From Faecalibacterium sp. CAG:74 (GTDB lineage: Bacteria; Bacillota; Clostridia; Christensenellales; Aristaeellaceae), in assembly GCA_000437595.1 (NCBI GenBank), contig FR899900.1:133729-197728 (forward strand): a DNA stretch of 64,000 nucleotides. Direction: 5' to 3'. Shown in pieces: positions 49,644 through 62,403 of the stretch. The position numbers and the translations under genes were made by a program. The first letter of the stretch is position 1. Every line of letters starts with the position of its first letter. The notes beneath the pieces were generated by a model, which saw only the letters and a list, made by a program, of their open reading frames with translations, was not told the origin of the DNA and searched no databases.

Positions 49644-49865
49644 CAAGCGTTCTTCGCATTTTCCCGCTTTTTTTCCGAAGATTCCAAAAACACAAGGCTG
49701 AAACAAGCAGGAAATTTCGATTTCTTGGCGAATTAAACTGATGGATGAGCAGAGACAGCCCTGCAAGCCATCCAAATAACATGTTGTGTTCCCCGTTCCT
49801 GTTGGTTCCGGGTGTACTTTTTGTGTTCCTTGGCAGAACGCTTTTTGAGGGAGGTGAGCGGTGCC

Positions 49866-51653
49866 GTGCGTTTTCCGCCTTCATGGCTGGATGAGCTCCG
49901 CGCGCGTGCGGACATCGTTCAGATCGTTGGGCAGTACGTCCAGCTCAAAAAGAATGGGCGCAAATACTGGGGGCTATGCCCCTTCCATGGAGAAAAAACC
50001 GCATCTTTCTCCGTGGATCCGGAAAAGCAGCTGTTCTACTGCTTCGGCTGCAAGGCGGGCGGCAGCGTCATCCATTTTGTGATGGAGATTGAACATCTGC
50101 CGTTTCCCGAAGCGGTGAAGCATCTGGCGGATCAGCTGCACATGCCGCTGCCGCAGATGGAGGCCGACCCGGATTATCAGCGGCGGCAGACGCAGCGCGA
50201 GCGACTGCTGGCGTGCAATCGGGATGCGGCGCACTTCTTCTACGAAACGCTCTTCACCCCCGCGGGGCAGCCGATGCTGGATTATTTGAAGCGCCGCGGC
50301 GTATCCGACGGCGTCATCCGCAAATTCGGTCTGGGCGCAGCGCCGAACAGCTGGGATGCTTTAACCCGCGCGATGCAGGCAAAGGGCTACACCACCGAAG
50401 AGCTGCAAATGGCTGGGCTGATTGTCATCAAAGATGCGGAGGAAGCGACGGCGGATCGCCCTGCGCGCTCGCGCCGCGCTTTTGACATGTTCCGCAACCG
50501 CGCGATTTTCCCCATCATCGACCAATACGGCAACGTCTTGGCGTTTGGCGGGCGCGCAATTGAGAACGTGCAGCCGAAGTACCTCAACACGTCCGACACC
50601 CCCATTTTCAACAAGCGTTTGGGCGTGTACGCGGCAAATCTTCTGCGCAAAGAGCGGCACTTGGAGCGTGTGGTGCTGGTCGAGGGGTACATGGACGTCG
50701 TTTCGCTGACGCAGTTCGGCGTGACCGGCGTCTGCGCGACACTCGGCACGGCGCTGACGAACGAACAGGCAAAGCTGCTCAAACGCTTTGCGCCGATGGT
50801 ATACTTGTCCTACGATGGCGACAGCGCGGGGCAGCACGCCATCCTGCGCGGTCTGGATATACTGGAGGCGGAAGGCATTCCGGCGCGCGTGCTGGATTTT
50901 CCTGACGGGCTTGACCCGGACGAATTCATCCGCCGCGACGGGAAAGAAGGCTTCGACAAGCTGCCTGCCCTGACGCCGCAAGCCTACCGGATGCGTCGGC
51001 TTCGCGCGGAACACGACCTGACCACGCAGGAGGGGCGAACCGCCTACGCGAAGGCGTGCGCCGCGATCCTGCGGAACTTGGAGCCGGTGGAGATGGAGAA
51101 CGCCCTGCAGGAGCTCATCGTGCAGACGGGCTTCAGCCGCGATGTGCTGATTGCGCAAATCGGCATGACGCCGCCGAAGGACATCACTTCTGCGCCTCCC
51201 CTGCCCGCGCGAATCGCTCGTCCGCCTGCGACGCCTGTCCCGGAGCCGGAAAACGCCGACGAGGATGTACGCGCGGAGGAGCTGCTGCTTTCGCTGATTG
51301 CCACGTCGCGTCTGCCGGAAGATTTAGCGCAGGAGGACGACTTCCGCGACCCGCTGCTCAAGGAGCTGTTTCTGCAGCTGCAAAGCGGTGTGTCCGCCGC
51401 GTCACTGGTGGAAAGCCAGAGCGACGAGGTGGTGCGCGCCCGCGTCAGTCATCTGCTGATGGCGCAGAGCGGCGAAAGCACGGATCAAATGCTGCAAATG
51501 GCGCACGACTGCCTATCGCGGATGCGCTTGAAACGAGCGCGCGCGCAGTATGACGAGATTATGAAGCGCATCAAAACGCTCTCCGGCGCAGAAAAAATGC
51601 AGGCGCTGGATGAAGCAAAGCAGCTGACTGCCACCATCAACCGACTGAAATAA
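49866..51653 (+). CDS. dnaG: DNA primase
   Basis: Zinc ribbon (CPFHGEKTASFSV..CFGC), TOPRIM domain (EGYMDV), and C-terminal helicase-interaction domain. The start is uncertain: a GTG at 49866 about 11 nt after GGAGG was chosen, and the 49812 GTG is less likely. Confidence 0.85.
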   Translation: MRFPPSWLDELRARADIVQIVGQYVQLKKNGRKYWGLCPFHGEKTASFSVDPEKQLFYCFGCKAGGSVIHFVMEIEHLPFPEAVKHLADQLHMPLPQMEADPDYQRRQTQRERLLACNRDAAHFFYETLFTPAGQPMLDYLKRRGVSDGVIRKFGLGAAPNSWDALTRAMQAKGYTTEELQMAGLIVIKDAEEATADRPARSRRAFDMFRNRAIFPIIDQYGNVLAFGGRAIENVQPKYLNTSDTPIFNKRLGVYAANLLRKERHLERVVLVEGYMDVVSLTQFGVTGVCATLGTALTNEQAKLLKRFAPMVYLSYDGDSAGQHAILRGLDILEAEGIPARVLDFPDGLDPDEFIRRDGKEGFDKLPALTPQAYRMRRLRAEHDLTTQEGRTAYAKACAAILRNLEPVEMENALQELIVQTGFSRDVLIAQIGMTPPKDITSAPPLPARIARPPATPVPEPENADEDVRAEELLLSLIATSRLPEDLAQEDDFRDPLLKELFLQLQSGVSAASLVESQSDEVVRARVSHLLMAQSGESTDQMLQMAHDCLSRMRLKRARAQYDEIMKRIKTLSGAEKMQALDEAKQLTATINRLK

Positions 51654-51734
51654 TGCAGTCGTTATGGAAATTGCAATTTGTTTATCGCTACCGAGCCGGA
51701 AAACCCGGCTGTATCACAAGAAGGAGAGTTCAAC

Positions 51735-52850
51735 TTGACGCTTTCGCAGAATGGCCGTCCGTCACCGCTTGACGAACTGTACGAATACGCAAAAAACAAA
51801 GGCACGATCACTTATCAGGAAGTGACCGATCGTCTGGGCAATACTTTTTTTGAGGCCGATCAGCTGGAGAAGGTGCTGGACAAGCTGGAGAGTCTGGGCG
51901 TGACCGTGGTGGATTCCGCGGAAATCCCGGATACATCCCCCGCTGCCATGGAAGTGCCCGATCCCGCGCTGAACGACGACCTGAGCGAAGCTGATGTCAT
52001 TTCCGCCGACGACCCGGTGCGCATGTATCTGAAGGAAATCGGGCGCATTCCGCTGCTAACGAGCGAAGCGGAAATTGAAGTTGCCAAGCAGCTGGAAAGC
52101 GACGACCCCGCCATCCGCAACGAGGCGAAACGCCGCCTGAGCGAAGCGAACCTGCGCCTTGTCGTGTCGATTGCCAAGAAGTACGTTGGGCGCAGCAAGA
52201 ACTCCATGAGCCTGCTCGACCTGATTCAGGAGGGCAACCTCGGGCTGATGAAGGCCGTGGAGAAGTTCGACTACACCAAGGGCTTCAAGTTCTCCACCTA
52301 CGCGACGTGGTGGATTCGGCAGGCTATCACCCGCTCGATTGCCGATCAGGCGCGTACCATCCGCATCCCCGTGCACATGGTGGAAACAATTAACCGCATC
52401 GTGCGCGTGAACCGCCAGCTTCAGCAGAAGCTGGGGCGTGAGCCGCGCCCGGAGGAAATCGCAAAGGAACTGGGCATCAGCGTGAGCAAGGTGCAGGAAA
52501 TCATCAAGATTGCGCAGGAGCCGGTGTCGCTCGAATCCCCGATTGGCGAGGAGGAGGACAGCCACCTCGGCGACTTCCTCGAAGACGACAAGACGCCGCC
52601 GCCCTCCCAGATTGTGGCGGAAAGCATGATGAAGCAGACGCTTTCCGATGTGCTGCACATGCTGACGCCGCGCGAAGAGCAGGTCATTCGGATGCGCTAC
52701 GGGCTGGATGACGGTCAGCAGCGTACGCTGGAGGAAGTTGGCAAGGCGTTCAACGTCACCCGCGAGCGCATCCGCCAAATTGAGGTGAAGGCGCTGCGCA
52801 AGATTAAGCGCCCGAACATGTCCAAGAATCTGGTGGACTACATGGATTGA
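51735..52850 (+). CDS. RNA polymerase sigma factor, group 1-like (RpoD family) diverged paralog
   Basis: Complete regions 1.2, 2.1-2.4, 3 and 4.2 ([63 protein letters not shown]). It has an SKNSMS insertion in region 2.1 and a divergent C-terminal tail. Proposed TTG start at 51735 after AAGGAGAG. Confidence 0.85.
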
Positions 52851-52885
52851 TGATTCCCTGTTGGGCTGAAGGGAGTGGATTCCGC

Positions 52886-53986
52886 TTGACACAAACCCCG
52901 GATGGCCGCCAAAAGCGGCTTGATGACCTCTATGAATACGGCAAGAAGAAGGGCACGCTGACCTACAAGGAGATTATGGAACGCCTGATGGATCTCTACA
53001 TCGAGCCGGATCAGCTGGACAAGGTGCTGGAGAATCTCGAAGCGCTCGGCGTGACCGTCATCAATGAAAACGACCCGCAGCCCGCGCAGTCCAGCGAGGA
53101 CACCCCCCTTGACACGATTAACCTGTCCGTCCCCGACGGTGTGAGTTCCGACGACCCTGTCCGCCTGTATTTGAAAGAAATCGGCAAATATCCCCTGCTG
53201 ACCACCGAGGAAGAAATTGCGCTGGCAAAGCAGATTGCGGAAGGCACGCCAGAGGAGCAAGCAGCGGCAAAAAAGAAGCTCAGTGAAGCGAACCTGCGCC
53301 TTGTGGTGTCCATCGCCAAGCGCTATGTCGGGCGCGGAATGCAGTTTCTTGACCTGATTCAGGAGGGCAACCTCGGCTTAATCAAAGCGGCAGAGAAATT
53401 CGACTACACCAAGGGCTACAAGTTTTCTACCTACGCGACGTGGTGGGTTCGGCAGGCGATTACCCGCGCCATCGCCGATCAGGCGCGCACGATTCGCATT
53501 CCCGTGCACATGGTGGAGACCATCAACAAACTGATTCGCGTCAATCGTCAGCTGGCGCAGGAGCTGGGGCGCGACCCCACACCCGCGGAAATCGCGAAGG
53601 AAATGGGCATCAGCGAGAGCAAAGTGCGCGAAATCATCAAGATTGCGCAGGAGCCGGTGTCGCTGGAAACCCCGATTGGCGAGGAAGAGGACAGCCATCT
53701 GGGCGACTTCATCGAGGATGAGAACGCGCCCGCGCCGGCGGAGGTGGCGTCCAACGCCATGATGCGCGAACAATTGCAGGAAGTGCTGCACACACTGACC
53801 CCGCGCGAGGAGAAGGTCATCCGCCTTCGTTTCGGGCTGGAGGATGGACAGGCGCACACGCTGGAGGAAGTTGGCAAGGAGTTCAACGTCACCCGCGAAC
53901 GCATCCGGCAGATTGAAGCAAAGGCACTGCGCAAGATTCGCCACCCCGGCCGTTCCAAGAAACTGCGCGACTACTATACGGAATAA
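52886..53986 (+). CDS. sigA: RNA polymerase sigma factor RpoD/SigA (principal sigma)
   Basis: It is closer to canonical Firmicute SigA than the upstream copy ([48 protein letters not shown]). Proposed TTG start at 52886 after GAAGGGAG. Confidence 0.85.
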
Positions 53987-56380: not shown

Positions 56381-56541
56381 ATACTATTTCCAAATGAGAA
56401 TGCGCCAAGATGCGAAGCGAATTTTTCGCGCTGGCTAACGCGAATGAAACGCAGCGTAGCAGCGCTACGCTAAGTGGAATGAGCGGACGCAAGCGCGGAA
56501 AAGGCGCGAGCAGATGGCGCAGGTGAATTTGGAAATAGTAT
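56381..56541. repeat. perfect 15-bp inverted repeat (ATACTATTTCCAAAT / ATTTGGAAATAGTAT) flanking a 131-bp GC-rich segment with an internal 8-bp stem-loop
   Basis: The repeat arms are at 56381-56395 and 56527-56541. The AGCGTAGCAGCGCTACGCT hairpin sits inside. The right arm lies inside the annotated 3' end of the ybaK ORF. Confidence 0.5.
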
Positions 56542-56938
56542 CAATGGCGCTGTTGCTGCTGCCGCACGCGGGGAACACCGTCTCAAAGCGGCGCAGAGAA
56601 TCATCCAGATAGACCTCAACGCCCTCGTTGACTGCGAACGGGCAGACACCGCCGACGGCATGGCCAATTTTCTCCGGCACTTCCTCCGCTGCGAGCATCT
56701 TTGCCTTCACACCGAAACGCTCCTTGAAGCGGTGGTTGTCGATTTTGCCATCCCCCGCCGCAACAACCAGAATCGGCTGCTCCTTGCCCTGAAACGAGAG
56801 CGTTTTCGCAATGCGCCCCGGCCCACAGCCCAGCGCCTGTGCCGCCAAAGCAACCGTTGCGCTGGATTCATCGAGTTCGCGGATGCGGTCGGCAATCCCC
56901 TGCGCGGCGAATGCTGCGCGTACCTTTTCGATTGACAT
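56465..56938 (-). CDS. ybaK: YbaK/EbsC family aminoacyl-tRNA deacylase (Cys-tRNA(Pro)/prolyl editing domain)
   Basis: YbaK domain (ATVALAAQALGCGPGRIAKTLSF...VGGVCPF). The C-terminal 25 aa are low-complexity and read through the inverted repeat, so the true 3' end is uncertain. Confidence 0.7.
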   Translation of the reverse strand: MSIEKVRAAFAAQGIADRIRELDESSATVALAAQALGCGPGRIAKTLSFQGKEQPILVVAAGDGKIDNHRFKERFGVKAKMLAAEEVPEKIGHAVGGVCPFAVNEGVEVYLDDSLRRFETVFPACGSSNSAIDTISKFTCAICSRLFRACVRSFHLA

Positions 56939-56962: not shown

Positions 56963-58396
56963 TTATGCATCCAGCGCCGCGTCCATCAGCTTTTGCAGCA
57001 CCACCGGGTTCGCCTTGCCGCCGGAAAGCCCCATTGCCACGCCCATCAGCGCGTTTTTCAGCGTCAGCTTTCCCTTGCGGTAGCCCGCGACCATCTCCGG
57101 GTGCGTGTCGATGGCTTTGCGGACGTACTCTGTCAACACCGCTTCATCGCTGATTTGCATCAGTCCCATGCGGGTGACGTATTCCTCCGGGTCTTCGGGC
57201 GTGTTCCAGAGCGCGTCTATCGTCTTTTTCGCTGTGCCGACGCTGATAAGGCTCTGCTCAGTCATGTCCGCAATCTTCGCCAGGGACGCCGGGTTCAGCG
57301 GGATTTTCGCATCCTCGCCATCCAGCAGGCGGAACACTTCGCTGATCATCAGGTTCGCCAGCATTTTGACCGCCGCGGTGGACTGCGCCGCCGTCTCGAA
57401 GTAGTCCGCCAGATATTTGCTGGAGACCAGCTGCTCCGCCGCGTACGCCGTCAGCCCGTAATCCGCCATGTACGCCGCCTTGCGCACATCCGGCAGCTGC
57501 GGCAGCTCCTTGCGCCATCCGGCAATGACTTCGTCGCTCAGCACAATGGGCGCTAAATCCGGGTCGGGGAAATAGCGGTAGTCGTTGGCGTTCTCCTTGC
57601 GGCGCATGGAGAACGTTTTGCCCGTGGTCTGGTCGAAGCGGCGCGTCTCCTGCACAATCGCTTCGCCCTTCTTGACTGCCTCCACCTGCCGGCGGTATTC
57701 CTCCTCAATCGCGCGCTGAACGGACGTAAACGAGTTCAGGTTTTTCATTTCCGTGCGCGTGCCGAACGGTTCATCCTTTTTGTGGATGGAGAGGTTCACG
57801 TCACAGCGGAGCGAACCCTCCTGCATCCGGCAGTCACTCACACCCGTGTACTCGATGACTGCCTTCAGCTTGTGCAGGTACGCGACAGCCTCCTGCGGCG
57901 TGCGAATATCCGGCTCAGACACGATTTCAATCAGCGGAACGCCGCAGCGGTTGCAGTCGATGAGCGTCCCCTTCTCCGGGTCATGCACGAGCTTGCCCGC
58001 GTCCTCCTCGATGTGGATGCGCGTGATGCCGATGCGCTTCTCGCCCGCTTCCGTCTCCACCATCAAGTGCCCGCCGACGCACAGCGGCAGGTCATACTGG
58101 CTGATTTGGTACGCTTTGGGCAAATCAGGATAGAAATAATTCTTTCTGTCCTGCTTGGAGTAACGCGCAATCGTGCAGCCCGTCGCCAGCCCCGCCAGCA
58201 CCGCGTAATGCACCACCTGCCGATTGAGCACCGGCAGCGTGCCGGGAAAGCCCATACAGACCGGGCAGCACTGCGTGTTCGGCGCTGCGCCGAAGGTCGT
58301 CGGGCAGGCGCAGAAGATTTTGGTCTTCGTTTTCAGCTCCACATGAACCTCCAAGCCGATGACCATTTCATATCCGTCCATCATCTTCCAAGCCAT
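56963..58396 (-). CDS. gatB: Asp-tRNA(Asn)/Glu-tRNA(Gln) amidotransferase subunit B
   Basis: 477 aa. The N-terminus MIGLEVHVEL...CPVCMGFPG and a C-terminal YqeY-like domain. Confidence 0.95.
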   Translation of the reverse strand: MAWKMMDGYEMVIGLEVHVELKTKTKIFCACPTTFGAAPNTQCCPVCMGFPGTLPVLNRQVVHYAVLAGLATGCTIARYSKQDRKNYFYPDLPKAYQISQYDLPLCVGGHLMVETEAGEKRIGITRIHIEEDAGKLVHDPEKGTLIDCNRCGVPLIEIVSEPDIRTPQEAVAYLHKLKAVIEYTGVSDCRMQEGSLRCDVNLSIHKKDEPFGTRTEMKNLNSFTSVQRAIEEEYRRQVEAVKKGEAIVQETRRFDQTTGKTFSMRRKENANDYRYFPDPDLAPIVLSDEVIAGWRKELPQLPDVRKAAYMADYGLTAYAAEQLVSSKYLADYFETAAQSTAAVKMLANLMISEVFRLLDGEDAKIPLNPASLAKIADMTEQSLISVGTAKKTIDALWNTPEDPEEYVTRMGLMQISDEAVLTEYVRKAIDTHPEMVAGYRKGKLTLKNALMGVAMGLSGGKANPVVLQKLMDAALDA

Positions 58397-59856
58397 TACA
58401 GCGTCGCCTCCTTGCAGATTTCGCCCAGCGCCTCTTCCAGCGCATAGCCGACTCGGTAGAGCAGCGGTTCGGAGAAGGTCGCGCCCATCAGCTGCACGCC
58501 GACGGGCAGCCCCGCGCGGTCAAGCCCGCAAGGCAGCGACAAGCCCGGAATGCCCGCGATATTCACCGGGACGGTATCAATATCGCCGAGGTACATTTCC
58601 AGCGGCGACATCGTCTTTTCGCCAATTTTGTAGGCAGTCGTCGGCGCGACGGGCGAAAGCAGACAGTCAACGTCCTTCAGCACCGCGTTCAGTTCGCGGA
58701 TGACGAGCGTTCGCACCTGCAATGCCTTCTTGTAGTACGCATCGAAGTACCCGGCGGACAGCGTGTAAGTGCCCAGCAGAATCCGCCGCTTGACCTCCGC
58801 GCCGAAGCCCTCGCTGCGGCTCTTCAGGTACAATTCCTCCAAATCAGCATATTCCGCCGCACGATGCCCATAGCGAACACCGTCAAAACGCGCAAGGTTC
58901 GAGCTGGCTTCCGCCGAGGACAGGACGTAATACGCCGGAAGCGCGACCTTCAGCGACGGAATGCTGACTTCCTTCACCGTCGCGCCAAGGCGTTCGAGCG
59001 TCTTCGCGGCGTTCATGACGGCTTTGCGGACATCAGCGGACAAGCCCTCGCCGAACATCTCCTTCGGCAGACCAATGCGCAAGCCCTTCACGCCTGCTTT
59101 CATTTCGCGGTTCATGGGCGTATAGCCGCGTTTGATGGAGGTCGTGTCGCGGCAATCGTAGCCGGCAATCGCGTCCAGCACGAGCGCGTTGTCCGCAACG
59201 GTCTTCGTCATCGGGCCGATTTGATCCAGCGACGAGGCGAACGCGACCAGCCCATAGCGGCTGACCATACCGTACGTCGGCTTCATGCCGACAACGCCGC
59301 AGAATGCCGCAGGCTGGCGAATGGAGCCGCCGGTGTCGCTGCCGAGGGAGAACGGGGCTTCATCCGCCGCGACGCACGCCGCCGAACCGCCGGACGACCC
59401 GCCCGGCACGCGCGACAAATCACGCGGGTTATGCGTGGGGTGAAACGCGCTGTTTTCGGTGGATGAGCCCATGGCGAACTCATCCAGATTCGTCTTGCCG
59501 AGCAGGACGCAGCCCGCCGCCTGCAATTTCTCCCAGACCGTGGCGGAGTACGGCGATACGAAATCCGCCAGCATTTTGGACGCGCAGGTGGTTTTGCCGC
59601 CCTTGACGCAGATGTTGTCCTTCACGGCGACGGGAATGCCGCAAAGCGGCGACACCTTTTCGCCCTGCTGCCGCTTCTTGTCGCATTCATCCGCCTGCCG
59701 GAGCGCTTCTTCCTCGTTCAGGCTGATATACGCCTGTACCTTGCCCTCCACCTGATGGATGCGGTCGAGATACGCCTGCGTGACCTCGCGGGAGGTCAAA
59801 TCGCCGCGCTGCATGGCATCGGACAGCGCCAGCAGCGTCATTCGGGTAATTTTCAT
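58396..59856 (-). CDS. gatA: Asp-tRNA(Asn)/Glu-tRNA(Gln) amidotransferase subunit A
   Basis: Amidase signature GGSSGGSAA and Ser-cisSer-Lys triad context, at 486 aa. Its stop overlaps the gatB start by 1 nt. Confidence 0.95.
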   Translation of the reverse strand: MKITRMTLLALSDAMQRGDLTSREVTQAYLDRIHQVEGKVQAYISLNEEEALRQADECDKKRQQGEKVSPLCGIPVAVKDNICVKGGKTTCASKMLADFVSPYSATVWEKLQAAGCVLLGKTNLDEFAMGSSTENSAFHPTHNPRDLSRVPGGSSGGSAACVAADEAPFSLGSDTGGSIRQPAAFCGVVGMKPTYGMVSRYGLVAFASSLDQIGPMTKTVADNALVLDAIAGYDCRDTTSIKRGYTPMNREMKAGVKGLRIGLPKEMFGEGLSADVRKAVMNAAKTLERLGATVKEVSIPSLKVALPAYYVLSSAEASSNLARFDGVRYGHRAAEYADLEELYLKSRSEGFGAEVKRRILLGTYTLSAGYFDAYYKKALQVRTLVIRELNAVLKDVDCLLSPVAPTTAYKIGEKTMSPLEMYLGDIDTVPVNIAGIPGLSLPCGLDRAGLPVGVQLMGATFSEPLLYRVGYALEEALGEICKEATL

Positions 59857-59870
59857 GCCTGATTCCTCCC

Positions 59871-61949
59871 TTAATCAAACGTCTGCGGCACATTCACGCA
59901 GTCTTCGGTGCGCGTCGGCGCGTTGGAGAGCAGCAAATCGCGGTCAAAGGGCGCCGCCGGAATGTCCTCGCGCAGCACATTTTCCGTTGGAATGACGTGC
60001 GCCGTCTGCGGAACGTCGGTCGTGTCCACTTCCTGCAAGGCTTCGGCAAAGCCAAGAATTGTGTTCAGCTCCTCGCCCATTGTCACTTCTTCTTCTGCCG
60101 TCAGGGACAGCTTCGCCAGCTCCGCGACGGTCTTAATCGCCATCGTCGGACGCTTTTTCTGCGGATGCTTCTCTGCCTCCGCCGCCGTCGAAACGCCCAA
60201 TTGCAGCACTTCCAGCTGCTCGGCATCGACAAAATCCGGCGCGCTCGTCATCAAATCGGATGCGTCGCGCACCTTCGGGAAGGCAATCACGTCGCGCAGG
60301 GAATCCGCGCCAAGCAGCTGCATCACAAGGCGGTCAAGCCCGAAAGCGAATCCCCCGTGCGGCGGCGTGCCGTACTTGAAGGCGTCAATCATGAAGCCGA
60401 AGCGGGCGCGGGCGGTTTCCTCGGTGAAGCCCAAGGCGCGGAACATCAGCGCCTGCACGTCCGGGCGGTGGATACGAATCGAGCCAGAACCCAGCTCAAT
60501 GCCGTTCAGCACCACGTCATACGCCTGTGAGCGCACCCGCGCGGGATCGGTCATCAGGTAAGGCAAATCCTCCTCGTACGGCATGGTGAAGGGGTGGTGC
60601 ATCGCCATATAGCGCTGTTCTTCGTCCGACCACTCGAACTCCGGGAAGTCGGTGACAAAGCAGAAGCGGTAATCCTGCTTGGCGCGCAAGCCCAGCATAT
60701 CGCCGACTTCGAGGCGCAAGCCGCACAGCGTTCGACAGACGGTCTGGAACTTATCAGCGCAGAAGAGAATAAAATCGCCATTTTGGGCATCCAGCGCGGT
60801 CAGCAGCGCCTGCCACTGCGCCTTGGTGAAGTACTTTTGCAAAATGGAGTTGACCTCGCCGCTGTCGTGAATGAGAATCCACGCCATGCCCTTCGCGCCG
60901 TAACCCAGCGCGTGGTCGGTCAGCGTTTCGATGGTTGTGCGGGTGAATTTCTCCGCGCAGCCCTTGCAATTGAGCGCGCGCACCTTGCCGCCCTCGTCCG
61001 CCACGCGCCGAAAAACGGAGAAGGAGCATTCCGCCGCCAAGTCCGTCACGTCGCGGATCTCCATGCCGAAGCGCAAGTCCGGCTTGTCGCAGCCGTAGCG
61101 ATCCATGGACTCCTGCCACGTCAGGCGCGGGAAATCATAGCCGATTTCGCGTCCCATCACGTCACGGAAGATGCTCTTAAACAGGCGCTCCAAGTGCTGG
61201 AGGATATCCTCCTGCTCCACAAACGACATCTCCATATCGACCTGCGTGAACTCCGGCTGGCGATCGGCGCGGAGATCCTCGTCGCGGAAGCAGCGGGCAA
61301 CCTGATAATACTTGTCCATGCCGCCGACCATCAGCATCTGCTTGAAAATCTGCGGTGACTGCGGCAGGGCGTAGAACTTGCCGGGATGCACGCGGCTGGG
61401 CACGAGGTAATCGCGTGCGCCTTCTGGGGTGGACTTGCAGAGCATCGGCGTCTCGATGCAGGTGAAGCCGTCGCCGTTCAGGTACTTTTCCGCCGCCATC
61501 TGCACCTGATGCCGGAAGCGGAGTGCCTTCTGCAACTGCGGACGGCGCAAATCCAGATAGCGGTACTTGAGCCGCAGTTCCTCGCGCACCTTTGCATCCT
61601 CGTCCATCGAGTACGGCAGGGGCTGCGCTTCGCTGAGGACAACAAGGCGCTTTGCCAGCAGCTCCACCTCGCCCGTCGCCAGACGCGGGTTATACGTTTC
61701 TTCGTCGCGGTGACGAATTTCGCCCTCCACCTGAATCACGCTCTGCATATGCAGCGTTTCCGCATGGTGGAAGTCCTCCGGCGGCAGGTACTGCATATTG
61801 CAGACGACCTGCGCAACGCCCTCGCGATCCTTCACATCCAGAAAAATCACGCCGCCCATATCGCGCCGATTCTGCACCCAGCCGCACAGCGTCGCCGTCT
61901 GTCCCATATGCTCTTTGCGGATTGCGCCGCAGTAATGTGTCCGCTTCAT
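59871..61949 (-). CDS. aspS: aspartate--tRNA ligase fused in-frame to a C-terminal GatC domain (AspRS 602 aa + GatC 90 aa, no intervening stop)
   Basis: Class II AspRS: anticodon-binding OB fold, motif 1, QSPQ, motif 2 FRDEDLRADRQPEFTQVD, motif 3 GGFAFGLDRLVM. The ORF then runs straight into MAIKTVAELAKLSLTAEEE...IPTENVLRED...VPQTFD, which is a GatC-like sequence by length and by motifs such as VPQTF and ENVLRED. The internal ATG is at 60143 and has no recognisable SD. The start was set to MKRTHYC (ATG 61949) after AAGGAGGATGACC. Confidence 0.8.
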   Translation of the reverse strand: MKRTHYCGAIRKEHMGQTATLCGWVQNRRDMGGVIFLDVKDREGVAQVVCNMQYLPPEDFHHAETLHMQSVIQVEGEIRHRDEETYNPRLATGEVELLAKRLVVLSEAQPLPYSMDEDAKVREELRLKYRYLDLRRPQLQKALRFRHQVQMAAEKYLNGDGFTCIETPMLCKSTPEGARDYLVPSRVHPGKFYALPQSPQIFKQMLMVGGMDKYYQVARCFRDEDLRADRQPEFTQVDMEMSFVEQEDILQHLERLFKSIFRDVMGREIGYDFPRLTWQESMDRYGCDKPDLRFGMEIRDVTDLAAECSFSVFRRVADEGGKVRALNCKGCAEKFTRTTIETLTDHALGYGAKGMAWILIHDSGEVNSILQKYFTKAQWQALLTALDAQNGDFILFCADKFQTVCRTLCGLRLEVGDMLGLRAKQDYRFCFVTDFPEFEWSDEEQRYMAMHHPFTMPYEEDLPYLMTDPARVRSQAYDVVLNGIELGSGSIRIHRPDVQALMFRALGFTEETARARFGFMIDAFKYGTPPHGGFAFGLDRLVMQLLGADSLRDVIAFPKVRDASDLMTSAPDFVDAEQLEVLQLGVSTAAEAEKHPQKKRPTMAIKTVAELAKLSLTAEEEVTMGEELNTILGFAEALQEVDTTDVPQTAHVIPTENVLREDIPAAPFDRDLLLSNAPTRTEDCVNVPQTFD

Positions 61950-62278
61950 GGTCATCCTCCTTGCTTTTTTGCGGTATAAAAAAACGCCTTTCAACCCCAA
62001 CACATGGGGCGAAAGACTTCTCGCGGTACCACCCAATTTTCCCCGGCGCGCGCCGGAGCATCTCTGCCGCAACGGTCAAAAATGACGATTGCGCGAAGCT
62101 GTCACGGGCTTCCCCCGTCCGTGCCTACTAAGCAAACGCTTTTCGGGCGGCGGCTCTGAGCTGTTTCTTCCCCGGTGTCCGCCTGCCGCACTCGCACCTG
62201 TTCGCGGCTCTCTGCAAAAGCGACTTCCCGGCTACTGCTGCTCTTCATAGCCTTGTGGAGACTTGCGTCTCTGTTGAA
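61950..62278 (-). ncRNA. T-box riboswitch leader upstream of aspS-gatC-gatA-gatB
   Basis: The minus-strand leader contains GCAGAGAGC (stem I AGAGA). Candidate specifier triplets are GAC-A (Asp) and AAC-A (Asn). There is a near-consensus T-box AAUUGGGUGGUACCGCG (the complement of 62022-62038), then a terminator hairpin plus a U7 run just before the RBS. Confidence 0.85.
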
Positions 62279-62286
62279 TTGCGGTT

Positions 62287-62315
62287 ATCATACCATCTTT
62301 TCCGGCGCTTGTCAA
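62287..62315 (-). promoter_or_regulatory. sigma-70 type promoter for the aspS T-box leader
   Basis: On the minus strand: TTGACA (complement of 62310-62315), a 17-nt spacer, then TATGAT (complement of 62287-62292). Confidence 0.6.
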
Positions 62316-62403
62316 GCAAAAAACATTGGGAAAACAATTGCCGGACACAAAAAAGGGGCTGATGACCCCTGCAAACGCAGAAATCACCAGCCGAAGAATT
62401 GCT

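What the first reader, a model, noticed from the sequence alone, without database searches (positions are those of the whole stretch)
59871..61949. AspRS and GatC encoded as a single uninterrupted reading frame: a covalently tethered transamidosome?
A complete 602-residue class II aspartyl-tRNA synthetase runs directly into a full GatC-like sequence (90 aa) with no stop codon between them. The only ATG at the junction (60143) has no Shine-Dalgarno, so GatC would be made as an AspRS C-terminal extension.

gatA and gatB follow 14 nt downstream, and the whole unit sits behind a T-box leader. In organisms lacking AsnRS, a non-discriminating AspRS, GatCAB and tRNA-Asn form a non-covalent transamidosome. 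GatC is the subunit that wraps around GatA. A natural AspRS-GatC fusion would hard-wire that complex.

The alternative explanation is a single-base assembly error removing the aspS stop.
Basis: partly seen in the sequence, partly recalled or inferred. Interest (0 to 1): 0.8.

Follow-up and report, generated by a model that had tools for sequence, protein, structure and literature searches.

The report
Conserved AspRS–GatC fusion gene, T-box controlled
The aspartyl-tRNA synthetase and the small GatC subunit of the tRNA amidotransferase really are one gene here, a fusion conserved across many Clostridia and already catalogued in databases though apparently never studied biochemically.

Summary
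Window 59871-61949 (-) is one 692-aa ORF: a complete bacterial-type AspRS (residues 1-~586), a ~16-residue K/R-rich linker and a complete GatC (603-692). gatA starts 14 nt downstream, gatB overlaps the gatA stop, and a T-box leader precedes the unit.

It is not an assembly error. The exact protein recurs in 181 blocks of a public assembly collection. All 120 closest protein clusters (61-99% identity) carry AspRS and GatC domains. 57 genomes of Clostridia and Tissierellia have the same uninterrupted ORF followed by gatA and gatB.

The junction ATG occurs in only 2 of 58 sequences, and many loci have no start codon in the linker. GatC must therefore be made as the AspRS C-terminus.

The T-box specifier is AAC (Asn), and it is conserved in relatives. 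The operon therefore responds to uncharged tRNA-Asn.

Best reading: a dedicated tRNA-dependent Asn-tRNA(Asn) unit in which the AspRS dimer carries its own GatC and so recruits GatA/GatB.

Novelty is limited. NCBIfam NF009460 already names a "bifunctional AspRS/GatC", built on a Desulfobacterota lineage. UniRef labels a Clostridial member "Multifunctional fusion protein". I found no paper that characterises it. Complex formation, tRNA specificity and absence of AsnRS remain untested.

The parts
62357..62392 (-). Terminator-like hairpin plus T-run ending the upstream 5'-nucleotidase gene. It isolates the operon as its own transcription unit.
   Evidence: 16-bp stem followed by CCTTTTTTGT
62287..62315 (-). 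Sigma-70-like promoter: TTGACA, 17 nt, TG-TATGAT (11 of 12 matches)
   Evidence: This is a consensus match only; function is inferred from its position about 30 nt upstream of the T-box.
62002..62257 (-). T-box leader (RF00230), full length, transcription-attenuation type
   Evidence: 89.7 bits, E 3.4e-20, model positions 1-219 of 219, gathering score 93. T-boxes sit in the same place in 8 of 8 related loci tested.
62163..62165 (-). Specifier codon AAC (Asn) in the Stem I specifier loop (GAAGA-AAC-A, then helix GCUC)
   Evidence: Alignment and sequence. The same GAAGAAC(A/U) motif is aligned at that position in six related loci. A regex finds it in 39 of 49 evaluable fused loci.
61978..62017 (-). 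Terminator hairpin of the T-box (GUCUUUCGCCCC...GGGGUUGAAAGGC) followed by a U7 run
   Evidence: MFE -28.3 kcal/mol, z -2.4; sequence
61956..61962 (-). Shine-Dalgarno AAGGAGG for the fusion gene
60192..61949 (-). AspRS part of the fusion (residues 1-586): OB anticodon-binding domain, class II catalytic core and GAD insertion
60144..60191 (-). Linker (residues about 587-602: VSTAAEAEKHPQKKRPT). Variable in length and sequence among homologues and rich in K/R.
   Evidence: the equivalent segment, window residues 585-608, is 21-36 aa in 57 loci
59874..60143 (-). GatC domain (residues 603-692), complete. It includes the conserved NV(L/F)R-x-D motif (R660, D662) that contacts GatB in solved GatCAB.
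   Evidence: motif role from PMC4027206
59871..59873 (-). TAA stop of the fusion ORF
58396..59856 (-). gatA (486 aa), starting 14 nt after the fusion stop behind GGGAGG
   Evidence: TIGR00132 at 640 bits, cut-off 481
56963..58396 (-). gatB (477 aa). Its ATG overlaps the gatA stop, suggesting translational coupling.
   Evidence: NF004012 at 615.6 bits, cut-off 338
56465..56938 (-). YbaK-like aminoacyl-tRNA editing-domain ORF (157 aa), 24 nt after gatB. Probably the last gene of the unit. Specific to this lineage.
   Evidence: PF04073, E 7.5e-26; present in near-identical contigs; absent downstream of gatB in the 57 other fused loci

Best explanation
This is a genuine, selectively maintained fusion of a bacterial-type aspartyl-tRNA synthetase with GatC. 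It is the first cistron of a T-box(tRNA-Asn)-controlled operon, aspS::gatC-gatA-gatB.

Proposed mechanism:
1. When uncharged tRNA-Asn accumulates, its anticodon pairs with the AAC specifier. Its 3' end stabilises the antiterminator, so transcription reads through.
2. The 78-kDa product dimerises through the class II core, like other AspRS.
3. Each C-terminal GatC, on a flexible basic linker of about 16-35 residues, wraps the GatA-GatB interface as free GatC does.
4. Every AspRS dimer therefore carries two GatAB modules, giving an (AspRS-GatC)2 GatA2 GatB2 particle.
5. AspRS charges tRNA-Asn with Asp, and the tethered amidotransferase converts it to Asn-tRNA-Asn with little chance of release. 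The unit acts as a dedicated Asn-tRNA-Asn (and asparagine) synthase.

Shown here: the fusion, its conservation, the lack of an internal start, the operon, and the Asn specifier.

Inferred: dimer and complex stoichiometry, tRNA-Asn charging, substrate channelling, and that a second housekeeping AspRS (and GlnRS or another GatCAB) exists elsewhere in the genome.
For: Fusion real and conserved:
- The exact 692-aa protein is listed in 181 blocks of assemblies.
- Its 90%-identity cluster has 6218 members, and all 120 best clusters (61-99% identity, about 690 aa) carry PF02686 plus AspRS domains.
- In 57 of 57 genomes (Oscillospiraceae, Christensenellales, Limiplasma, Fimadaptatus, Peptostreptococcaceae, Fusibacter, Tissierellia, Epulonipiscium, Clostridiaceae) one ORF spans query residues 1-692 and is followed directly by gatA and gatB.

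Obligate fusion:
- The codon aligned with Met603 is ATG in 2 of 58 sequences (Ile 28, Glu 9, Val 7, others).
- Many loci have no ATG/GTG/TTG anywhere in the linker.
- The window's ATG has no SD.

Both halves intact:
- aspS and gatC equivalog models both score above their cut-offs.
- Motifs 2 and 3 are invariant in the fusion family, as is D662; R660 is conserved in at least 90% of sequences. R660 and D662 are the GatC residues that contact GatB.
- No other gatC lies in the operons or in the 64-kb window.

Asn logic:
- The T-box has an AAC specifier in the window and in six aligned relatives across orders.
- 39 of 49 evaluable fused loci have the T-box core plus GAA-N1-2-AAC. None of 21 unfused Lachnospiraceae aspS genes has the T-box core upstream.

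Distinct paralogue:
- Fused AspRS cores form one clade in a neighbour-joining tree.
- That clade has its own anticodon-loop signature: Thr85 in 52 of 52 sequences and one extra residue relative to unfused Lachnospiraceae.

Independent recurrence: a Desulfobacterales AspRS-GatC (41% identity) sits outside the Bacillota clade and is also followed by gatA and gatB.

Precedents:
- The T-box(tRNA-Asn) aspS-gatCAB operon of C. acetobutylicum (Saad 2012 and 2013, listed in the references of PMC4206432; details from my own knowledge).
- Non-covalent Asn-transamidosomes (PMC8406222, PMC7373986).
- An N-terminal extension on a GatC-like subunit is tolerated in yeast GatF (PMC4027206).
Against: - There is no direct evidence that the protein is made, stays uncleaved, or binds GatA/GatB.
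- tRNA specificity (non-discriminating, or tRNA-Asn-specific) cannot be read from the sequence with confidence.
- Whether the genome lacks asnS/asnA/asnB, or has a second aspS, gatC or glnS, could not be examined. Only 64 kb and 20-kb loci were available.
- About 10 of 49 evaluable fused loci show no T-box core motif within 600-700 nt upstream. Eight of them were rescanned at Rfam's gathering score: seven gave no T-box, and L023 has one about 960 nt upstream. T-box control is therefore common, not universal.
- The only characterised GatC fusion, the GatC-GatA mutant of M. smegmatis, lowers fidelity (PMC7541841). That fusion is at the other end of GatC.
- The AlphaFold model was too poor to use (mean pLDDT 60.6).
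- Linker reach against the AspRS C-terminus to GatC N-terminus distance in PDB 4WJ3 was not computed.
Confidence: 0.78

Rival explanations
1. Assembly or sequencing error: a lost stop codon or an indel artificially joins separate aspS and gatC genes in this window.
For: A single-base change could create such a fusion. aspS and gatC are adjacent separate genes in the known C. acetobutylicum operon (own knowledge).
Against: - The identical 692-aa product is called in 181 blocks of independent assemblies.
- All 120 nearest clusters are fused.
- 57 species-level genomes down to about 50% identity keep the frame open across a linker that varies in length and sequence.
- The Desulfobacterota lineage has its own curated fusion model.
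Confidence: 0.01
2. The ORF is continuous, but free GatC is the functional species. It would be produced by internal initiation at ATG 60143 or by proteolytic cleavage in the basic linker, so no tethered complex exists in vivo.
For: - The window and its closest relative L001 do have an in-frame ATG exactly at the start of the GatC homology.
- The linker is K/R-rich and poorly conserved, so it could be protease-accessible.
Against: - The ATG is absent in 56 of 58 sequences, and many linkers hold no start codon at all.
- The window ATG has no SD (-0.1 kcal/mol), whereas gatA and the fusion gene each have an obvious SD.
- If a free GatC were required, keeping the frame open in more than 57 species and in a second phylum would be unexplained.
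- Cleavage cannot be excluded in silico.
Confidence: 0.1
3. The GatC-like tail has been co-opted as an AspRS appendage that no longer serves GatAB, for example as a tRNA-binding or regulatory extension. The real GatC would be encoded elsewhere.
For: - aaRSs often acquire C-terminal appendages.
- Other AspRS fusions appeared in the searches: a tRNA_edit domain in P0134 and HisRS in P0131.
- The rest of the genome was not visible.
Against: - The tail matches the full GatC equivalog above its cut-off.
- It keeps the residues that contact GatB (R660 and D662).
- It is always followed within tens of nucleotides by gatA and gatB, with no other gatC in the operon.
- The same arrangement recurs independently in Desulfobacterales.
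Confidence: 0.06
4. The fused enzyme is the cell's only AspRS: a general non-discriminating enzyme serving both tRNA-Asp and tRNA-Asn, rather than a dedicated paralogue. The fusion would then tie all AspRS to GatCAB.
For: - No second aspS was seen in the window or in any 20-kb locus.
- In many bacteria a single non-discriminating AspRS does both jobs (PMC2330236).
Against: - Control by an Asn-specific T-box would leave Asp-tRNA-Asp supply unregulated by tRNA-Asp.
- The fused clade is a distinct branch, only about 50% identical to the nearest unfused AspRS.
- The C. acetobutylicum precedent has several aspS copies (own knowledge of Saad 2012).
- The test itself could not be run.
Confidence: 0.25

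Closest known systems
NCBIfam NF009460 / PRK12820, 'bifunctional aspartyl-tRNA synthetase/aspartyl/glutamyl-tRNA amidotransferase subunit C'
   Same: Same architecture: a bacterial-type AspRS with a C-terminal GatC. A near-member (Desulfobacterales P0186, 1188 bits, itself below the cut-off) has the same gene order, fusion then gatA then gatB.
   Different: - The window protein scores 595 bits against a cut-off of 1379, and five other Bacillota fusions score 590-663 bits.
- The AspRS cores are about 41% identical and fall in separate clades, so the fusions probably arose independently.
- The GatC part of P0186 is much more divergent (Pfam 20.8 bits).
- No T-box search was run on that locus (L085).
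T-box(tRNA-Asn)-controlled aspS-gatCAB transamidation operon of Clostridium acetobutylicum (Saad et al. 2012 JBC; 2013 PNAS)
   Same: A T-box leader with an Asn specifier is followed by an AspRS gene and the gatC, gatA and gatB functions in one unit. That unit is a dedicated tRNA-dependent Asn pathway in a Clostridium (references listed in PMC4206432; content from my own knowledge, because the papers are not held).
   Different: There aspS and gatC are separate cistrons (my recollection, not verified here). Here they are one ORF with no internal start. The two-codon (Asn/Glu) reading described for that T-box was not examined here.
Non-covalent Asn-transamidosomes (T. thermophilus 3KFU; P. aeruginosa 4WJ3; M. 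tuberculosis)
   Same: The components are the same: non-discriminating AspRS, GatCAB and tRNA-Asn. The AspRS part is close to P. aeruginosa ND-AspRS chain 4wj3_M (E 9e-175, residues 1-586). The presumed purpose is also the same, namely channelling of Asp-tRNA-Asn (PMC7373986, PMC8406222).
   Different: Those complexes are held together by tRNA and protein contacts, or by Hp0100 in H. pylori. They are not held by a peptide bond. No solved chain covers the AspRS-GatC junction.
Other GatC fusions and extensions: the GatC-GatA mutant of M. smegmatis and GatF of yeast mitochondria
   Same: These show that GatC-type subunits can carry extra polypeptide. The N-terminal domain of GatF is functional (PMC4027206).
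   Different: - The mycobacterial fusion is at the C-terminus of GatC. It is a laboratory mutant that raises mistranslation, and about 500 surveyed gatCAB loci showed no natural GatC-GatA fusion (PMC7541841).
- The GatF extension binds GatA and is not a synthetase.

Membership tests
Bacterial-type aspartyl-tRNA synthetase (NF001750 / TIGR00459) | Full-length match above the curated cut-off, with an OB-fold anticodon domain, a class II core carrying motifs 1-3, and a GAD insertion | tested here: met
   - NF001750 at 820.9 bits against a cut-off of 443, residues 1-587.
- TIGR00459 at 755 bits against 374.
- Pfam domains.
- PDB homologues aligned over residues 1-586.
GatC (PF02686 / TIGR00135) | Complete GatC sequence above the family cut-off | tested here: met
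   - TIGR00135 at 76.8 bits against a cut-off of 47.1, profile positions 5-93 of 93.
- PF02686 at 67-72 bits against 23.
GatC (PF02686 / TIGR00135) | Conserved Arg and Asp that contact GatB (S. aureus R64 and D66) | tested here: met
   NVLRED at residues 657-662. D662 is invariant and R660 is conserved in at least 90% of 20 fusion proteins. Role of the residues from PMC4027206. Equivalence rests on motif alignment only.
GatC (PF02686 / TIGR00135) | Encoded with gatA and gatB; assembles with them | tested here: inconclusive
   Gene linkage is met in the window and in 57 of 57 related loci. Physical assembly is not testable with these tools.
NF009460 bifunctional AspRS/GatC equivalog | AspRS followed by GatC in one polypeptide | tested here: met
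NF009460 bifunctional AspRS/GatC equivalog | Score at or above the curated cut-off (1379 bits) | tested here: not met
   595 bits for the window protein, and 590-663 bits for five other Bacillota fusions. Desulfobacterales P0186 scores 1188 bits. The lineage is separate in the tree.
T-box leader (RF00230) | Full-length covariance-model match at or above the gathering score | tested here: inconclusive
   89.7 bits against a gathering score of 93, E 3.4e-20, model positions 1-219. Homologous leaders in relatives score 85.6-107.3 bits; five of eight are above the gathering score.
T-box leader (RF00230) | Specifier loop with a codon followed by a purine, the conserved T-box sequence (UGGN), and a terminator/antiterminator upstream of an aaRS or amino-acid gene | tested here: met
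   - AAC-A at 62165-62162.
- GGGUGGUACCGCG at 62034-62022.
- Terminator hairpin plus U7.
- AAC conserved in relatives.
Non-discriminating AspRS / Asn-transamidosome | Aspartylates tRNA-Asn as well as, or instead of, tRNA-Asp | not testable with these tools
   Indirect evidence only: the Asn T-box, the gatCAB linkage, and a clade-specific anticodon-loop signature.
Non-discriminating AspRS / Asn-transamidosome | Forms a complex with GatCAB (and tRNA-Asn) | not testable with these tools
   Covalent linkage to GatC makes it likely. There are no structural or biochemical data, and the AlphaFold monomer was uninformative.
Non-discriminating AspRS / Asn-transamidosome | The organism depends on the indirect route (no AsnRS and/or no asparagine synthetase) | not tested
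   Only 64 kb were visible. The window holds no AspRS/AsnRS/LysRS paralogue and no second gatC, gatA or gatB.
T-box-controlled aspS-gatCAB operon (C. acetobutylicum type) | Asn-specific T-box followed by aspS, gatC, gatA and gatB in one unit | tested here: met
T-box-controlled aspS-gatCAB operon (C. acetobutylicum type) | aspS and gatC as separate cistrons | tested here: not met
   Single ORF with no internal start.

The most novel reading that the evidence does not exclude
The fused AspRS is a specialised paralogue that works only, or mainly, on tRNA-Asn. Together with GatA/GatB it would form an obligate, stoichiometric, tRNA-independent Asn-transamidosome, in effect a multi-subunit 'AsnRS' that is also the cell's asparagine synthase. 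On this reading, covalent tethering was selected at least twice (Bacillota and Desulfobacterota) because it prevents release of Asp-tRNA-Asn. No such natural hard-wired transamidosome has been characterised biochemically or structurally in the literature I could search.
Probability: 0.4. Interest if true: 0.55.

Novelty: new member of a known kind. Interest (0 to 1): 0.4.

Why it matters
Transamidosomes are described as dynamic complexes, often tRNA-dependent, whose stability tunes translational fidelity (PMC8406222). A natural AspRS-GatC fusion is evolutionary evidence that physical coupling of the mischarging and correcting enzymes is under selection. It is widespread in gut and environmental Clostridia and has arisen again in Desulfobacterota.

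It also offers a ready-made stable complex for structural and kinetic work on channelling.

In practice, NCBI's pipeline names these proteins simply 'aspartate--tRNA ligase'. gatC therefore looks missing from such genomes, and pathway reconstructions for abundant gut Oscillospirales could wrongly score GatCAB as incomplete.

It is not a new kind of system. The architecture is already catalogued and the operon logic is already known.

Tried and rejected
- **Rfam at gathering threshold** found nothing in the window. The T-box appeared only with the E-value threshold.
- **GatC-only alignment (A2)** was too variable for the genome scan. I used the AspRS C-terminus plus GatC instead (A3). It did not return the window's own species.
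- **50%-identity representative search** mostly returned unfused AspRS at 51% identity or less. It showed that the fused family is compact, and it yielded the Desulfobacterales fusion P0186.
- **AlphaFold** on a 20-sequence alignment gave a poor model (mean pLDDT 60.6, with even the catalytic core below 50 in places). I drew no conclusion from it and ran no fold search.
- **Literature:** eight full-text searches and several reviews gave no description of a natural AspRS-GatC fusion. The key papers are not held, so I could not check whether they mention it. These are Saad 2012 and 2013, Suzuki 2015, and Sheppard & Soll 2008 JMB.
- **The YbaK-like gene after gatB** is not a conserved part of the system. 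It is absent from the 57 other loci.
- **Assembly error** was considered and rejected.
- **Internal initiation** was rejected as the general mechanism, because the ATG is not conserved.
- **Specificity from the anticodon loop:** I did not try to call discriminating versus non-discriminating specificity. The published determinants I recall (H. pylori L81/L86) are from memory and were not verified.
Full report
**1. The observation**

On the minus strand an ORF runs from ATG 61949 to TAA 59873-59871 without interruption and encodes 692 aa. AAGGAGG lies 6 nt upstream of the ATG.

- Pfam finds an OB-fold anticodon domain (20-105), the class II core (123-560), the GAD insertion (313-408) and GatC (616-687, E 1.5e-18). 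The last 90 residues alone match GatC at E 3.9e-20.
- NCBIfam places residues 1-587 in the aspS equivalog NF001750 (820.9 bits, cut-off 443). It places residues 604-692 in the gatC equivalog TIGR00135 (76.8 bits, cut-off 47.1), covering profile positions 5-93 of 93.
- Solved AspRS structures, including the non-discriminating P. aeruginosa enzyme of the transamidosome (4wj3_M), align to residues 1-586. Nothing in the PDB covers the tail.
- gatA starts 14 nt after the stop, behind GGGAGG. The gatB ATG overlaps the gatA stop.
The one adjustment is that the AspRS homology ends near residue 586, so about 16 residues (VSTAAEAEKHPQKKRPT) form a linker.

**2. Not an artefact**

- The exact 692-aa sequence is recorded in 181 blocks of a collection of public assemblies, on contigs up to several hundred kb. 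Its 90% cluster has 6218 member sequences.
- All 120 best-scoring clusters (61-99% identity) carry AspRS and GatC domains. Nearly all are about 690 aa; a few are truncated fragments. One, from Clostridiaceae bacterium NSJ-31, is named 'Multifunctional fusion protein' by UniRef.
- I scanned one genome per GTDB species with the C-terminal 167 residues (AspRS motif 3 through GatC). This returned 57 loci in which the whole query matches contiguously.
- In each of those loci a single stop-free frame covers query residues 1-692, or runs to the contig edge, and is followed within tens of nucleotides by gatA and gatB.
- The hosts are labelled Oscillospiraceae, Christensenellales, Limiplasma, Fimadaptatus, Feifaniaceae, Mageeibacillus, Peptostreptococcaceae/Acetoanaerobium, Fusibacter (including isolate 3D3), Tissierellia, Epulonipiscium and Clostridiaceae.
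- The other 23 loci, mostly Lachnospiraceae, have ordinary ~600-aa AspRS genes with no gatA or gatB nearby.

**3. GatC cannot be made separately**

- In an alignment of 20 fusion proteins the Met at position 603 is replaced by Ile in most.
- Over 58 sequences the aligned codon is ATG in only two, the window and L001. Otherwise it is Ile (28), Glu (9), Val (7), Phe (5) and others.
- Many loci contain no ATG, GTG or TTG anywhere between the end of the AspRS core and the first GatC helix.
- The window's ATG has no Shine-Dalgarno complementarity (-0.1 kcal/mol).
- The linker segment (window residues 585-608) varies from 21 to 36 residues, is basic, and is essentially unconserved, as expected for a flexible tether.
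- GatC itself keeps 20 invariant positions. These include D662, with R660 conserved in at least 90% of sequences, in the NV(L/F)RxD motif. The corresponding residues (R64 and D66) contact GatB in S. aureus GatCAB (PMC4027206).
- Proteolytic processing cannot be excluded in silico.

**4. Regulation**

- A terminator-like hairpin closes the upstream 5'-nucleotidase gene (62392-62357).
- A near-consensus promoter follows (TTGACA-17-TGnTATGAT, 62315-62287).
- A full-length T-box lies at 62257-62002 (89.7 bits, E 3.4e-20). Its score is 3 bits below Rfam's gathering threshold, which is why the default scan of the window was empty.
- The specifier loop reads GAAGA-AAC-A just before the closing helix GCUC, so the specifier is AAC (Asn), at 62165-62163.
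- The T-box core GGGUGGUACCGCG is followed by a terminator hairpin and U7.
- In eight relatives from different orders, cmscan finds a T-box in the same position. The six shown as alignments all carry GAAGAAC(A/U) at the specifier site.
- By pattern matching, 39 of 49 evaluable fused loci have the T-box core plus GAA-N1-2-AAC.
- About ten fused loci show no T-box core motif within 600-700 nt upstream. Eight of these were rescanned at Rfam's gathering score. Seven gave no T-box, and L023 has one about 960 nt upstream, separated by an inserted small ORF.
- None of the 21 evaluable unfused Lachnospiraceae aspS genes has the T-box core upstream.
- The unit is therefore switched on by uncharged tRNA-Asn, not tRNA-Asp.

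**5. Evolution**

- In a rough neighbour-joining tree of AspRS cores (583 columns, no support values), all fused Bacillota sequences form one clade. This clade is separate from the unfused Lachnospiraceae enzymes and from the nearest unfused representatives, which are at most about 51% identical.
- The clade has its own anticodon-binding-loop signature: RDxETxNPx(L/I)xTG, Thr85 in 52 of 52 sequences, and one residue more than the Lachnospiraceae enzymes. That region contacts the anticodon in known AspRS (my own knowledge). I did not try to infer specificity from it.
- A second, distant fusion lineage exists in Desulfobacterales: P0186, 710 aa, 41% identical, with a weak Pfam GatC hit. It sits among unfused enzymes in the tree and is also followed by gatA and gatB.
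- NCBIfam model NF009460/PRK12820, 'bifunctional aspartyl-tRNA synthetase/aspartyl/glutamyl-tRNA amidotransferase subunit C', appears to be built on that lineage. P0186 scores 1188 bits on it. The window protein and five other Bacillota fusions score 590-663 bits. The cut-off is 1379.
- The architecture has probably arisen at least twice, each time in an aspS-gatCAB gene order.

**6. How it most likely works**

Shown: the fusion, its conservation, the absence of an internal start, the operon, and the Asn specifier.

Inferred from established knowledge of the families:
- Class II AspRS is a homodimer.
- GatC encircles the GatA-GatB interface and is needed for GatA folding (PMC2330236, PMC4027206).
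- Non-discriminating AspRS, GatCAB and tRNA-Asn form transamidosomes that limit release of Asp-tRNA-Asn (PMC7373986, PMC8406222).

Each AspRS dimer should therefore display two GatC tails and assemble two GatAB modules. That gives a fixed 2:2:2 particle dedicated to making Asn-tRNA-Asn when tRNA-Asn charging falls.

Tethering GatC to AspRS makes this GatCAB less suitable for Glu-tRNA-Gln. An Asn-only T-box is also an odd control for a sole AspRS. I therefore expect a housekeeping aspS and either glnS or a second gatCAB elsewhere in the genome. This expectation was not tested. The window itself has no further class IIb synthetase and no second gatC, gatA or gatB.

**7. Comparison and novelty**

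- The operon logic matches the T-box(tRNA-Asn) aspS-gatCAB operon of C. acetobutylicum (Saad 2012 and 2013, listed in the references of PMC4206432). The papers are not held, and my recollection is that aspS and gatC are separate genes there.
- The fused architecture is catalogued (NF009460; UniRef 'Multifunctional fusion protein'). However, NCBI names the Clostridial proteins only 'aspartate--tRNA ligase'.
- Eight full-text searches and the reviews of 2008, 2020 and 2022 contain no mention of a natural AspRS-GatC fusion.
- The only studied GatC fusion is a GatC-GatA laboratory mutant that lowers fidelity. Its authors found no natural GatC-GatA fusion in about 500 loci (PMC7541841).
- I therefore rate this as a new member (Clostridial lineage) of a known kind. 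It is real, widespread, annotated and biochemically unexplored. It is interesting to transamidosome specialists as a natural hard-wired complex, but it is neither surprising in kind nor unknown to databases.

**8. Limits**

- Whole-genome content could not be inspected.
- The tree is a distance tree without support values.
- The AlphaFold model was unusable.
- No coordinates were available to compare linker reach with the geometry of 4WJ3.

Noticed in passing
window 56465-56938 (-): A 157-aa YbaK-like aminoacyl-tRNA editing-domain ORF (PF04073, E 7.5e-26) starts 24 nt after gatB and looks like the last gene of the operon. It matches only profile positions 2-113 of 123, and its C-terminal ~25 residues look unrelated to the domain. 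Near-identical contigs call it as 114 or 157 aa. It is absent after gatB in the 57 other fused loci. A trans-editing factor riding on a mischarging operon would be worth a look.
   Followed up: partly
P0134, from the representative search: A 744-aa AspRS with a C-terminal tRNA_edit (YbaK-type) domain exists elsewhere. It is 28% identical to the window's YbaK-like ORF over 107 residues. This is a second, different way in which an editing domain is associated with AspRS.
   Followed up: partly
window 62002-62257 (-): This T-box scores 89.7 bits, just under Rfam's gathering score of 93. Three of the eight homologous leaders tested (L043, L024, L032) are also below it. Default Rfam annotation therefore misses part of this Asn T-box class.
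   Followed up: yes
L004 3784-4017 (-): A second, divergently oriented T-box (124 bits) with a UUC (Phe) specifier lies about 950 nt upstream of the Asn T-box of the fusion operon.
   Followed up: no
L023 7225-8426: The T-box lies about 960 nt upstream of aspS::gatC. The gap holds an ORF whose C-terminal part resembles small DUF559/Vsr-like endonuclease domains (by eye). This looks like an insertion between leader and gene, and it should disturb attenuation control.
   Followed up: no
L085 8168-10867: In the Desulfobacterales fusion locus gatA is short (414 aa). gatB is called as two ORFs (GatB_N 272 aa and GatB_YqeY 215 aa). This is either a frameshift in that contig or a genuinely split GatB.
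   Followed up: no
P0131: A 1029-aa HisRS-AspRS fusion protein is present in the representative library. It is consistent with fusion of the common hisS-aspS gene pair.
   Followed up: no
window about 49812-53986 (+); L081 17727-21859: dnaG is followed by two tandem full-length RpoD-like sigma-70 genes (371 and 378 aa in the gene calls) rather than one.
   Followed up: no
L005, L009, L025, L029, L038, L045, L047, L050: These fused loci show no T-box core motif within 700 nt upstream of aspS::gatC. The first seven also gave no T-box at Rfam's gathering score; L050 was not rescanned. Part of the fusion family is therefore regulated differently, or by a diverged leader.
   Followed up: partly
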